From the UHGV virus genome UHGV-0862314: a stretch of DNA of 11,943 nucleotides; one strand, given 5' to 3'. The position numbers and the translations under genes were made by a program. The notes under the pieces are model-generated. The model worked only from the letters and a program-made list of their open reading frames with translations. It had not been told where the DNA came from and made no database searches. Source of the DNA: a virus. Positions 5,639 to 6,958 of the stretch are shown here, piece by piece. The number at the start of each line of letters is the position of its first letter. Position 1 is the first letter of the stretch.

Positions 5639-6958
5639 TCAAGCGATGAAGCGAGATTTGGTCCTTTTTTGTGCTGCTACTGTGCGAACGACCTCCTCTG
5701 GGTCCCTCGCCGCAGGCGTCATTGGTACACCTTGTGCTGCTCTTGCCTCTGCGGCATGAACCGCAGGATTTGTTGCTGCAGCGGCATCACCGGAGAATGG
5801 TGATGTTTCTGTTGGCGCAGTACCGGAGAATGGTGATGTTTCTGTTGGCGCAGTGGTCGCTCTCTGTGCAGATGTTTTATTGCCACTAATTATATTTGAT
5901 GCACCACGAACACCACGGGTAACGCCATTTATCAGGCCATGCGTAGCAATGTTAAGTCCGGCATTAATAGCGGCATTTTCGGCAAAATCACCCCGTTGAT
6001 TCGCCGCGTCAGCGAGAGAACCAATGACCATGTTTCCAGCTACTCCTGCTCCAGGAACAAGATAACCGCCTATTGACTCTCCAGCTTGCGCATAAGGGTC
6101 TGTCGGTCGATCTACTGGACGATAGACATCGTCCAAAACCTTGGGGCCACCAAGCCCCTGGCTGATTGCATTAATCAGACTTGCGCCACCCTGCAATACG
6201 TCAAATGGTATGTTTACCAGACCACGACCAGCCTGCTCTGCAATTTGCCCTGCACTTTGACCACCTGTGAGCCAATCGCCAGCTTGTTGCATCAATGATG
6301 GTTCTTCACGTGCTGGTTCATTATTGGCCTGATTAACTGTTTGTTGCTGAACAGGTTTCGGTGCGACAGAACTTACGGGTTGAGGTGGCTGCTGACTGGC
6401 TGCCTGCTGCTCAATCTGAGCAAATGGATTATTTGGGTCTGACTGCACACCTGATGCCGATACTTGTTCGGATGACTGTGCTTCCAGTTGTGCAAACGGG
6501 TTGTTAGGGTCTTGCTGAGGATGTACCTTTGCAGAGGTGGCGCGCTGTTCGACTGTTGAGTCTGTCACCGGGTCACCCGCCCATTGAGCAAAGCGATCAT
6601 CAACGTAACCGCGGCCTTCAGGTCCTGGCGTATATTCACCACGCTTTGCCTTCATAACGTTGCCGGGACCGTCGTGATAAGCCTGAAGAGCATCACGCCA
6701 GTTACCAAACTGCTGGTACATCTTTGCCAGATAGCGCGCGCCAGCGTCAGCCTGATATTCGGGGTTTTGCATTTGCTCATCGGTATAACCCATATCACGC
6801 CATGTCCCAGGCATGACCTGAGTCAATCCTACAGCCCCGGCGGAGCTTACTGCGGCAGGGTTGTAAGAAGACTCCTTGGCACCCAGTGCAGTCATCAACC
6901 CTTCTGGCACACCGTAACGTGCGCCAGCCTGCTCTAACAAATCACGGTAATTAGCCAT
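5639..6958 (-). CDS. N-terminal portion of a gp16-position ejection protein, with a lytic transglycosylase (SLT-like) domain and a Gln/Pro-rich repeat linker
   Basis: N-terminus carries an SLT-like motif ([28 protein letters not shown]...[12 protein letters not shown]). ATG at 6958..6956 directly follows the TAA of the upstream gene (translational coupling). Low-complexity Q/P-rich middle region with internal repeats. Confidence 0.7.
5799..5864. repeat. Exact 2 x 33-bp in-frame tandem duplication inside the ejection protein gene
   Basis: Unit ACCGGAGAATGGTGATGTTTCTGTTGGCGCAGT occurs at 5799..5831 and again at 5832..5864 with no mismatch. On the minus strand it encodes the duplicated peptide [11 protein letters not shown]. 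Confidence 0.95.

What the first reader, a model, noticed from the sequence alone, without database searches (positions are those of the whole stretch)
5639..6958. Lytic transglycosylase (SLT-like) domain at the N-terminus of the gp16-position ejection protein
The motif [22 protein letters not shown]...[12 protein letters not shown] resembles the catalytic region of soluble lytic transglycosylases. This implies the ejected protein digests peptidoglycan locally during genome delivery, as internal virion proteins do in other podoviruses. The architecture (SLT, Q/P-rich repeat linker, large C-terminal region) is worth comparing with canonical P22 gp16.
Basis: partly seen in the sequence, partly recalled or inferred. 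Interest (0 to 1): 0.4.

Follow-up and report, generated by a model that had tools for sequence, protein, structure and literature searches.

The report
Wall-cutting domain on phage injection protein
A P22-like prophage carries a cell-wall-cutting (lytic transglycosylase) domain fused to the front of its largest DNA-injection protein; this variant is already annotated in public databases, and in this copy a one-base insertion breaks the gene.

Summary
On the minus strand, 5639..6958 encodes 439 aa whose first ~130 residues are a family-1 lytic transglycosylase (Pfam SLT E=1.4e-25). E29-S30 aligns with Slt70 E478 and T7 gp16 E37. The AlphaFold model has pLDDT 90.6, and its best structural matches are Slt, Slt70, MltE and T7 gp16-N. 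A Q/P-rich linker follows, then a segment 81% identical to P22 gp16 residues 53-189, so this is a gp16-family ejection protein.

An extra A at 5662 shifts the frame. Without it, 4189..6958 encodes a 922-aa protein identical to one in an E. coli assembly and 99% identical in DNA to phage Sf101 gp13. The frameshifted allele was found in no collection searched. The tailspike also has a frameshift, and both window ends are rearranged, so this looks like a degraded prophage or an error-bearing sequence.

The SLT+linker is a swappable cassette. It occurs on at least three gp16 bodies, and this body also occurs with two other N-termini.

The most likely function is local peptidoglycan cleavage during DNA entry, as in T7 gp16; this is inferred, not shown. 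The variant is already annotated in databases, although a 2022 review says P22-like phages lack it. Interest is low to moderate.

The parts
6569..6958 (-). SLT (family-1 lytic transglycosylase) catalytic domain, aa 1-130 of the gp16-position protein. The catalytic Glu29 codon is at 6872..6874. Motifs: I = E29-S30; II = G44-L-T-Q47-x-M-P50; III = A93-Y94-H-D-G97.
   Evidence: Pfam PF01464 E=1.4e-25. E29 aligns with Slt70 E478 and T7 gp16 E37. E29, S30, G41, A42, G44, Q47, P50, G73, Y76, Y94 and G97 are invariant in an 86-sequence alignment. AF2 pLDDT 90.6. Foldseek best matches are Slt, Slt70, LtgA, MltE and T7 gp16.
6299..6568 (-). Q/P/A/S-rich linker, aa 131-220. It holds two copies of a conserved 12-aa motif DPNNPFAQ[L/I]E[A/Q]Q: aa 150-161 = 6476..6511 and aa 174-185 = 6404..6439. 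The swappable SLT+linker cassette ends at about aa 204.
   Evidence: Composition and motif scan. The motif is kept twice in diverged homologues P0009, P0035, P0048 and P0049. Cassette boundary from the module table and the sequences.
5900..6298 (-). Conserved gp16 core, aa 221-353, shared with canonical P22 gp16. It contains two Gly-rich hydrophobic stretches, around aa 247-265 and 295-318.
   Evidence: 81% identity to P22 gp16 aa 53-189. PF26808 Phage_P22_gp16 is recorded on the identical 922-aa protein of L012. Hydropathy windows.
5789..5854 (-). Perfect 33-nt in-frame tandem duplication ([11 protein letters not shown] x2) in the variable middle region. It is polymorphic among relatives.
   Evidence: TRF period 33, 2.0 copies, 100% match. 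Absent from Sf101 and APC_JM3.2. Present in L012 and in 6 of the 40 listed E. coli genomes.
5662..5662 (-). Single extra A (GGACC here, GGCC in all relatives). This frameshift splits the gene.
   Evidence: Alignments to Sf101, APC_JM3.2 and L012. The allele has 0 hits in genome, metagenome and viral contig scans, while the intact allele is in 23 viral contigs. None of the 40 listed rows from 51 matching complete E. coli genomes has it.
5639..5641 (-). Premature stop codon reached in the shifted frame. It ends the 439-aa ORF after 8 out-of-frame residues (TKSRFIA).
4189..5661 (-). Remainder of the gp16 gene in its native frame (aa 432-922 of the repaired protein). It is listed mechanically as a 433-aa GTG ORF, 4189..5490.
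   Evidence: phrog_770 and phrog_21143 span both ORFs in order. The repaired translation is 100% identical to the L012 922-aa protein. The GTG at 5490 has no Shine-Dalgarno sequence, and the two frames overlap only over 5676-5642.
6959..8290 (-). Gene 20 homologue (ejection protein, periplasmic channel), immediately upstream.
   Evidence: PF16928 Inj_translocase E=6e-68. The exact product is recorded in 94 blocks of the collection; in all 8 loci shown it is followed by an SLT+PF26808 gene.
8300..8992 (-). Gene 7 homologue (ejection protein, outer-membrane/extracellular channel).
   Evidence: PF25688 P22_gp7 E=1.8e-134.

Best explanation
Window 4189..6958 (minus strand) is the gene-16 (third ejection protein) locus of a P22-like (Lederbergvirus-type) prophage. 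It is the mosaic variant in which a ~204-aa cassette replaces the short N-terminus of canonical P22 gp16. The cassette is a family-1 lytic transglycosylase (SLT) domain plus a Q/P-rich linker. In intact relatives the 911-922-aa protein would be packaged in the head. [quoted passage not shown] There the SLT domain, with Glu29 as the acid/base catalyst, would cut MurNAc-GlcNAc bonds and locally open the peptidoglycan mesh. The gp16 body would go to the cytoplasmic membrane and join the gp20 tube to complete the DNA conduit. The cassette is an optional accessory that recombination moves between gp16 bodies. In this particular sequence one extra A at 5662 shifts the frame, leaving a 439-aa SLT+linker+core fragment and an untranslatable remainder. 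This copy is therefore either a decayed prophage gene or carries a sequencing error. Shown: domain identity, conserved catalytic motifs, fold, gp16 homology, synteny, cassette shuffling, and the frameshift and its uniqueness. Inferred: packaging, ejection, muralytic activity, and the order of events.
For: SLT identity:
- Pfam PF01464 E=1.4e-25.
- Slt70 E=2e-10, with E29 aligned to E478.
- T7 gp16 N-terminus E=4e-11, with E29 aligned to E37.
- Catalytic and motif residues are invariant across 86 homologues.
- AF2 pLDDT 90.6.
- Foldseek TMq 0.77-0.82 to Slt, Slt70 and LtgA, and 0.76 to T7 gp16 7eyb_I.

gp16 identity:
- aa 221-353 are 81% identical to P22 gp16 53-189.
- The identical 922-aa protein in L012 carries PF01464 + PF26808 Phage_P22_gp16.
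- Gene order is gp10-gp26-gp14-gp7-gp20-[this]-mnt-tailspike.

One gene, not two:
- Sf101, APC_JM3.2, Dewey, IME10 and L006-L013 all have a single ORF.
- The window differs from L012 over ~8.7 kb only by +A at 5662 and -T at 2604.
- The frameshift allele is absent everywhere, while the intact allele is in 23 viral contigs.

Cassette modularity:
- The same SLT+linker is found at 100% identity on three different bodies.
- The same body is found with a P22-type or a third N-terminus.
- Of 23 viral contigs with this body, 10-11 have SLT, 7 the P22-type, 3 the third type and 2 are unclassified.

Mechanistic frame from the literature:
- The T7 gp16-N transglycosylase is needed for genome internalisation when peptidoglycan is highly cross-linked (review PMC8954989).
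- In P22, gp16 is ejected before gp20, enters the periplasm as a monomer and localises to the cytoplasmic membrane. A gp20 barrel then crosses the peptidoglycan (preprint 10.64898/2026.09.03.749273).
Against: - No biochemical or virion-proteomic data exist for this protein or its close relatives in the papers I could search. Muralytic activity and ejection are inferred.
- Motif III reads AYHDG instead of the consensus AYNAG. This is conserved within the gp16-SLT clade, but its effect on catalysis is unknown.
- Near-identical gp16 bodies work without the SLT cassette, and P22 itself has none. The domain is therefore dispensable for the basic mechanism.
- In this window the gene is frameshifted, so the full-length protein cannot be made by normal translation.
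- I cannot tell whether the frameshift is biological or a sequencing error.
Confidence: 0.85

Rival explanations
1. The split is a genuine two-gene arrangement. A stand-alone 439-aa SLT protein and a separate 433-aa protein would both be functional in this phage.
For: Both ORFs are long and open. The 439-aa product keeps the SLT, the linker and the conserved gp16 core.
Against: - Every relative examined has one continuous ORF.
- The split is caused by a single inserted base in otherwise identical DNA.
- The exact 439-aa product is not on record, and the allele is absent from all collections.
- The downstream ORF's only start is a GTG with no Shine-Dalgarno sequence.
- The tailspike in the same window is broken in the same way.
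Confidence: 0.03
2. Recoding: ribosomes shift +1 at CAA-AAA-AGG-A (a Lys codon run followed by the rare Arg codon AGG). This lies within the 35-nt overlap of the two frames and would yield a near-full-length protein with one residue changed (R to G).
For: The two frames overlap over 5676-5642, and that overlap contains A-AAA-AAG-G. tRNA-Lys could re-pair after a +1 slip. Rare AGG codons are known to promote +1 shifts in E. coli (my own knowledge, not tested here).
Against: - Programmed frameshifts are conserved, and here no relative needs one. All encode the protein in a single frame, and the inserted base is unique to this window.
- No stimulatory element was sought or seen.
- At best this would be low-level leaky suppression of a mutation.
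Confidence: 0.03
3. The SLT domain serves host lysis at the end of infection (an endolysin-like role), or is a catalytically inert structural 'wing', rather than an entry enzyme.
For: PHROG neighbours include families labelled endolysin (phrog_669, phrog_10475). Motif III deviates from the consensus (AYHDG). In T7 the gp16 N-terminal domain also has a structural role as the 'wings' of the periplasmic tunnel (review PMC8954989).
Against: - The domain is covalently fused to a gp16-family ejection protein inside the virion-protein operon.
- The P22 lysis genes lie elsewhere in the genome (P22 record).
- The catalytic Glu-Ser and motif II are invariant, which argues against an inert domain.
- The closest functional analogue, T7 gp16, acts at entry (PMC8954989).
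Confidence: 0.07

Closest known systems
Shigella phage Sf101 gp13 (YP_009153087.1, 911 aa), Escherichia phage APC_JM3.2 gp29, and the 922-aa prophage protein in E. coli assembly GCA_026142765.1 (L012)
   Same: This is the same gene. DNA identity is 99.1% to Sf101, and the L012 protein is 100% identical once the extra A is removed. The synteny is the same. The protein is already labelled 'transglycosylase' or 'lytic transglycosylase domain-containing protein'.
   Different: The window has a +1 frameshift at 5662. Compared with Sf101 it also has a second copy of an 11-aa repeat.
Salmonella phage P22 gp16 (609 aa; Pfam PF26808 Phage_P22_gp16)
   Same: Same position in the ejection-gene trio 7-20-16. 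The core segment is 77-81% identical (P22 residues 42/53-189). The presumed role is at the cytoplasmic-membrane end of the DNA conduit (preprint 10.64898/2026.09.03.749273).
   Different: P22 gp16 has a ~50-aa N-terminus and no SLT domain. The C-terminal ~570 aa of the window protein are not detectably similar to P22's by BLASTP. In P22 the only reported virion muralytic protein is gp4 (review PMC5380687).
Phage T7 gp16 (internal virion protein D, 1318 aa), N-terminal lytic transglycosylase domain
   Same: An N-terminal SLT domain sits on the largest, last-encoded ejection protein. E29 aligns with E37. The folds are similar (7eyb_I TMq 0.76, rmsd 2.8 A). In both, the catalytic domain is followed by an extended non-globular segment (PMC8954989).
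   Different: Only the first ~130-240 residues are related (phrog_342 hit limited to 3-241). The rest belongs to a different family. [quoted passage not shown]
E. coli Slt70 / P. aeruginosa Slt (family 1A lytic transglycosylases, GH23)
   Same: Same catalytic-domain fold and motifs. These are the best sequence and structure matches among solved structures.
   Different: These are periplasmic housekeeping enzymes with large superhelical U and L domains. Here the catalytic domain stands alone and is fused to a phage ejection protein.
gp16-position proteins of other phages with P22-type virion modules: Escherichia phage IME_EC2 gp26 (Murrayvirus, 1007 aa) and Kosakonia phage Kc259 'lytic transglycosylase' (1038 aa)
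   Same: Same gene order. An SLT domain at 57-67% identity lies near the N-terminus and carries the same AYHDGPGN signature. Looser N-x-F-x-Q-[FIL] motifs flank the domain.
   Different: About 30 residues precede the SLT. The linkers and bodies are different, and these phages belong to different genera.

Membership tests
Family-1 lytic transglycosylase / Pfam SLT (PF01464), GH23 | Profile score above the curated gathering threshold | tested here: met
   89.5 bits against a cut-off of 21.3, E=1.4e-25, residues 7-110 matching 2-110 of 117 profile positions.
Family-1 lytic transglycosylase / Pfam SLT (PF01464), GH23 | Catalytic Glu followed by Ser (motif I) at the position of Slt70 E478 | tested here: met
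   E29-S30 aligns with Slt70 E478-S479 and T7 gp16 E37-S38. Both residues are invariant in 86 sequences.
Family-1 lytic transglycosylase / Pfam SLT (PF01464), GH23 | Motif II (G-L-M-Q) and motif III (A-Y-N-A-G) | tested here: inconclusive
   Motif II is GLTQVMP, with G44, Q47 and P50 invariant. Motif III is AYHDG: Y94 and G97 are invariant, but the window has H95 and D96 where 90% or more of homologues have N and A. The H-D variant is conserved in the gp16-SLT clade. Its catalytic consequence is unknown.
Family-1 lytic transglycosylase / Pfam SLT (PF01464), GH23 | Goose-lysozyme-like all-helical fold | tested here: met
   The AF2 model has pLDDT 90.6 and pTM 0.86. Foldseek against PDB gives Slt, Slt70 and LtgA at TMq 0.77-0.82, probability 1.00.
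Family-1 lytic transglycosylase / Pfam SLT (PF01464), GH23 | Non-hydrolytic cleavage of MurNAc-GlcNAc giving 1,6-anhydroMurNAc | not testable with these tools
   Needs enzyme assays and muropeptide analysis.
P22 gp16 ejection-protein family (Pfam PF26808 Phage_P22_gp16) | Sequence membership | tested here: met
   PF26808 is recorded for the identical 922-aa L012 protein and for the other SLT-gp16 proteins. Identity to P22 gp16 53-189 is 81%. phrog_770 'DNA transfer protein' matches at E=2e-89 and 8e-58 across the two ORFs. PF26808 is not in the local Pfam copy, so this relies on precomputed hits.
P22 gp16 ejection-protein family (Pfam PF26808 Phage_P22_gp16) | Position: third gene of the 7-20-16 ejection cluster, upstream of the mnt/tailspike region | tested here: met
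P22 gp16 ejection-protein family (Pfam PF26808 Phage_P22_gp16) | Intact reading frame encoding the full protein | tested here: not met
   The +A at 5662 truncates the product at 439 aa. The locus is a member by descent but is a pseudogene or error-bearing copy here.
P22 gp16 ejection-protein family (Pfam PF26808 Phage_P22_gp16) | Packaged in virions and ejected before DNA; required for infectivity | not testable with these tools
   Needs virion proteomics and genetics.
T7 gp16-type internal virion protein with transglycosylase | Homology along the whole protein, not only the enzyme domain | tested here: not met
   Similarity to T7 gp16 is confined to about residues 2-119. phrog_342 matches 3-241 of the protein against profile positions 14-244 of 1235. 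It works like T7 gp16-N but is not a member of the T7 gp16 family.

The most novel reading that the evidence does not exclude
The SLT+linker is more than an enzyme on a tether. It would be a self-contained, horizontally exchanged 'entry booster' cassette. Its twice-repeated conserved peptide (DPxNPFAQ[I/L]ExQ, looser N-x-F-x-Q-[FIL] in distant genera) would be a docking motif that fastens the enzyme to the gp20 periplasmic tube or to the portal, in the way T7 gp16 residues 157-228 act as 'molecular tape'. Natural populations carry near-identical gp16 bodies with and without the cassette. They therefore offer a ready-made test of when a P22-like phage needs its own peptidoglycan cutter, for example with stationary-phase or highly cross-linked walls. 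This would correct the published generalisation that P22-like phages lack this activity.
Probability: 0.25. Interest if true: 0.45.

Novelty: already known. Interest (0 to 1): 0.25.

Why it matters
It matters modestly. It documents that a minority of P22-like phages and prophages do carry a peptidoglycan-cutting domain on gp16. Ten of about 150 phage records with a P22-type gp7 carry the exact cassette, and about half of the viral contigs with this particular gp16 body do. [quoted passage not shown] Because the cassette occurs naturally on and off otherwise near-identical ejection proteins, isolates such as Dewey and Huey (which infect E. coli K-12 with restored O16 antigen) could be used to ask when a short-tailed phage needs its own wall-cutting enzyme. 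For annotation, the practical lesson is that the 439-aa and 433-aa ORFs here are two halves of one broken gene.

Tried and rejected
- Plus-strand reading of 5639-6958: full of stops. The gene is on the minus strand.
- Single-sequence AlphaFold model of aa 1-203: pLDDT 58, with the catalytic region below 50. Discarded and replaced by an alignment-based model.
- Casjens & Thuman-Commike 2011, the survey of P22-like ejection-protein types: not held in the library. I cannot say whether it already describes the SLT variant.
- The Sf101 genome paper, the E212 paper, the BASEL paper and the SieA paper: none discusses an SLT on gp16.
- Exact-product look-up of the 439-aa ORF: not on record.
- Exact-match scans for the frameshifted allele in genome, metagenome and viral contig collections: 0 hits each. 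The positive control with the intact allele gave 23 hits.
- Attempts to identify the last 128 bases of the window (11816-11943): no match in complete E. coli genomes (megablast), phages (blastn) or species-representative genomes.
- A stand-alone two-gene reading and programmed frameshifting: considered and rejected (see rival explanations).
- Pfam on P22 gp16 returned nothing, because PF26808 is newer than the local Pfam copy. I relied on precomputed hits.
- The source organism of the window was not identified.

Full report
**1. What is at the coordinates.**
The plus strand of 5639..6958 is full of stops. The minus strand is one ORF of 439 aa beginning [52 protein letters not shown].... The window is the virion-completion and ejection module of a P22-like phage, all on the minus strand:
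- gp10: 10298..11716, PF11134
- needle gp26 with an Sf6-type knob: 9450..10298
- gp14: 8995..9453
- gp7: 8300..8992, PF25688
- gp20: 6959..8290, PF16928
- the ORF in question
- an Arc/Mnt-type repressor on the other strand
- a tailspike with the P22 head-binding domain

So 'gp16 position' is correct.

**2. Is it an SLT domain?**
Yes, by every test available.
- Pfam SLT PF01464 scores 89.5 bits (cut-off 21.3), E=1.4e-25, over residues 7-110.
- Against solved structures, the best sequence match is E. coli Slt70 (E=2.2e-10). Query E29-S30 lies on the catalytic E478-S479. MltC, MltE, P. aeruginosa Slt and T7 gp16 follow.
- A direct BLASTP against the T7 gp16 N-terminus gives E=4e-11, with E29 on E37. 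From my own recollection, E37 is the residue mutated in Moak & Molineux 2000; that paper is not held in the library.
- In an alignment with 85 homologues at 33-79% identity, E29, S30, G41, A42, G44, Q47, P50, G73, Y76, Y94 and G97 are invariant.
- One deviation: motif III reads AYHDG where 90% or more of homologues have AYNAG. The H-D pair is kept in all gp16-linked SLT domains I saw, including those of other genera. It therefore looks like a clade signature rather than decay.
- A single-sequence AlphaFold model was poor (pLDDT 58). With the alignment, the model reached pLDDT 90.6 and pTM 0.86.
- Foldseek against the PDB returned lytic transglycosylases (Slt, Slt70, LtgA, MltE/C/D/F) and T7 gp16 (7eyb_I, TMq 0.76, rmsd 2.8 A) among its listed matches.

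**3. The ORF is only the front of the gene.**
Two PHROG profiles (phrog_21143 and phrog_770 'DNA transfer protein') match this ORF and then continue, in register, into the next ORF, 4189..5490. The two ORFs are in different frames.

Megablast found phage Sf101 at 99.1% and APC_JM3.2 at 98.8% over the whole 2.9 kb. In both, the region is one CDS of 2736 nt, or 911 aa. Alignment shows two indels in the window:
- a perfect 33-nt in-frame tandem duplication (5789..5854; [11 protein letters not shown] twice)
- one extra A at 5662 (GGACC here, GGCC in relatives)

The extra A shifts the frame. A stop follows 8 codons later, at 5639..5641.

Deleting that one base gives a 922-aa protein. It is 100% identical to a protein in E. 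coli assembly GCA_026142765.1 (locus L012), which carries the precomputed Pfam pair PF01464 SLT + PF26808 Phage_P22_gp16.

The downstream ORF's only start codon is a GTG with no Shine-Dalgarno sequence. The two frames overlap by only 35 nt.

**4. Is the frameshift real?**
I cannot decide this.

For a sequencing or assembly error:
- From about 1320 to 10000 the window has no substitutions relative to L012. The only differences there are two one-base indels, each breaking a large gene: +A at 5662 in gp16, and -T at 2604 in a T-run of the tailspike.
- The frameshifted allele is in none of the 40 listed rows from 51 matching complete E. coli genomes.
- It is not in the protein collection as an exact product.
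- It is not in species-representative genomes, metagenome contigs or IMG/VR. The intact allele is in 23 IMG/VR contigs.

For real decay, the window is structurally abnormal at both ends:
- Only the last ~33 codons of gp4 are present. The final 128 bases match nothing I searched.
- The first 1258 bases are the acyltransferase (oac-like) segment of L012 in inverted orientation. The junction to it carries a ~90-nt dispersed repeat.
- This gene is commonly found broken in resident prophages. The 576-aa alleles, abundant in Shigella flexneri, end at an insertion whose first ORF looks like an IS3-family transposase OrfA.

Either way, normal translation of this copy cannot make the full protein.

**5. 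Architecture and comparison with canonical P22 gp16.**
For the repaired protein:

| Residues | Segment |
|---|---|
| 1-130 | SLT domain |
| 131 to ~220 | Linker rich in Q, P, A and S (52 of 95 residues), with two copies of DPNNPFAQ[L/I]E[A/Q]Q |
| 221-353 | Core, 81% identical to P22 gp16 53-189, holding two of the three most hydrophobic stretches; the third is at about 813-834 |
| 354-470 | Variable, repeat-prone middle |
| 471-922 | Body with no BLASTP similarity to P22 gp16, but covered by phrog_770 |

P22 gp16 (609 aa) has about 50 residues in place of the first 220, and no SLT.

**6. The SLT+linker is a mobile cassette.**
- The same 204 residues, at 100% identity, are joined to three different bodies: the Sf101/L012 type, the 797-aa IME10/L006 type, and the Dewey type.
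- Diverged copies sit on a P22-type body in Klebsiella (P0009).
- Conversely, this body occurs at 96-99% identity with the P22-type N-terminus MKVTANGKTF... (P0008, P0045) or a third N-terminus (P0042).
- Among 23 IMG/VR contigs with this body, 10-11 have SLT, 7 the P22-type N-terminus, 3 the third type and 2 are unclassified.
- In the phage collection, about 150 records have a gp7 homologue and 89 have this gp16 core. Ten have the exact SLT cassette, and 15 more have a copy at 60-80% identity.
- The 60-80% group includes genera with P22-type virion modules, such as Murrayvirus IME_EC2 and Kosakonia phage Kc259, where the SLT again lies near the N-terminus of the gp16-position gene.

The domain is thus an optional accessory.

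**7. Most likely mechanism (inferred).**
- In T7, the gp16 N-terminal transglycosylase is needed for genome internalisation when peptidoglycan is highly cross-linked. The segment after it acts as 'molecular tape' on the gp15 tunnel (review PMC8954989).
- In P22, a 2026 in-situ cryo-EM preprint (10.64898/2026.09.03.749273) proposes a sequence. Gp7 is ejected first. Gp16 then passes into the periplasm as a monomer and localises to the cytoplasmic membrane. [quoted passage not shown]
- An SLT domain on a flexible ~90-residue tether at the N-terminus of gp16 would therefore arrive in the periplasm before the gp20 barrel has to pass the wall. It could open the mesh locally.
- In P22 itself the only reported virion muralytic activity is gp4 (review PMC5380687). 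The relatives with full phage modules shown also encode a gp4, so the SLT may be a booster rather than the sole enzyme.

**8. Novelty.**
The exact protein is already in public databases. It is labelled 'transglycosylase' (Sf101 GenBank record, 2014) or 'lytic transglycosylase domain-containing protein' (RefSeq). It has a PHROG, and the Pfam architecture SLT + Phage_P22_gp16 is recorded. I found no paper that discusses or tests it. I rate it 'already known' at the annotation level, with a small gap in the literature.

**9. Verdict.**
The finding is ordinary, though a tidy example of mosaic ejection-protein evolution. Interest 0.25.

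Noticed in passing
window 1566..3775 (minus strand); indel at 2604: The tailspike is also split by a frameshift. The two parts are a 399-aa ORF (P22 head-binding domain + GDSL/SGNH esterase domain) and a 354-aa ORF. In L012 they form one 736-aa gene. The window has a run of 7 T where L012 has 8. An esterase-type tailspike next to a prophage acyltransferase gene suggests O-antigen acetyl groups are involved in receptor recognition.
   Followed up: partly
window 1..1330: Window 1..1258 equals L012 14843..16099 (acyltransferase/oac-like gene) in inverted orientation, so part of the gene's 3' end is present twice as inverted copies. 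The junction (about 1259..1321) lies inside a ~90-nt element (1241..1330) found in 3962 of 5426 complete E. coli genomes, with up to 21 places per genome. The listed copies lie beside IS1414 transposase genes.
   Followed up: partly
window 11816..11943: Gene 4 (tail adaptor) is cut to its last ~33 codons. The outermost 128 bases match nothing in complete E. coli genomes, the phage collection or species-representative genomes. The head genes expected upstream are therefore missing or displaced, and the source organism stays unidentified.
   Followed up: partly
window 6404..6439 and 6476..6511 (minus strand; aa 174-185 and 150-161): A 12-aa motif DPNNPFAQ[L/I]E[A/Q]Q occurs twice in the linker. 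It is kept twice in diverged SLT-gp16 proteins although the surrounding linker drifts. Distant homologues (Kc259, IME_EC2) keep a looser N-x-F-x-Q-[FIL], one copy at the very N-terminus and one after the SLT. It may be a docking peptide. Its function is unknown.
   Followed up: partly
window 5789..5854: The 33-nt perfect tandem duplication (11 aa) is polymorphic. It is present in L012 and in 6 of the 40 listed complete E. coli genomes, and absent from Sf101, APC_JM3.2 and the other 34 listed. Another relative (P0036) has a different repeat expansion nearby (AAATNPAIH x3), so aa 354-470 is a repeat-prone variable region.
   Followed up: partly
L019, L023, L029, L031 (IMG/VR contigs); P0001-P0007 (Shigella flexneri): A common 576-aa allele of this gene ends where an insertion begins. 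The first ORF of the insertion starts MTKNTRFSPEVRQRAVRMVLESQG and looks like an IS3-family transposase OrfA (my own recognition, not tested). The PHROG 21143 profile is also 576 positions long, so that family profile was probably built from truncated genes.
   Followed up: partly
L015 4043..6436 (Enterobacteria phage IME10, NC_019501.1): IME10 has a 797-aa SLT-gp16 ORF directly after gene 20 that is not annotated in its RefSeq record. Only 27 features are annotated for the whole genome.
   Followed up: no
window 10000..11943 versus 1320..10000: All 118 substitutions relative to L012 lie in the gp10 region (10000..11943), while the remaining ~8.7 kb is identical apart from two indels. This is a sharp mosaic boundary inside or near the gene 26/gene 10 junction.
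   Followed up: no
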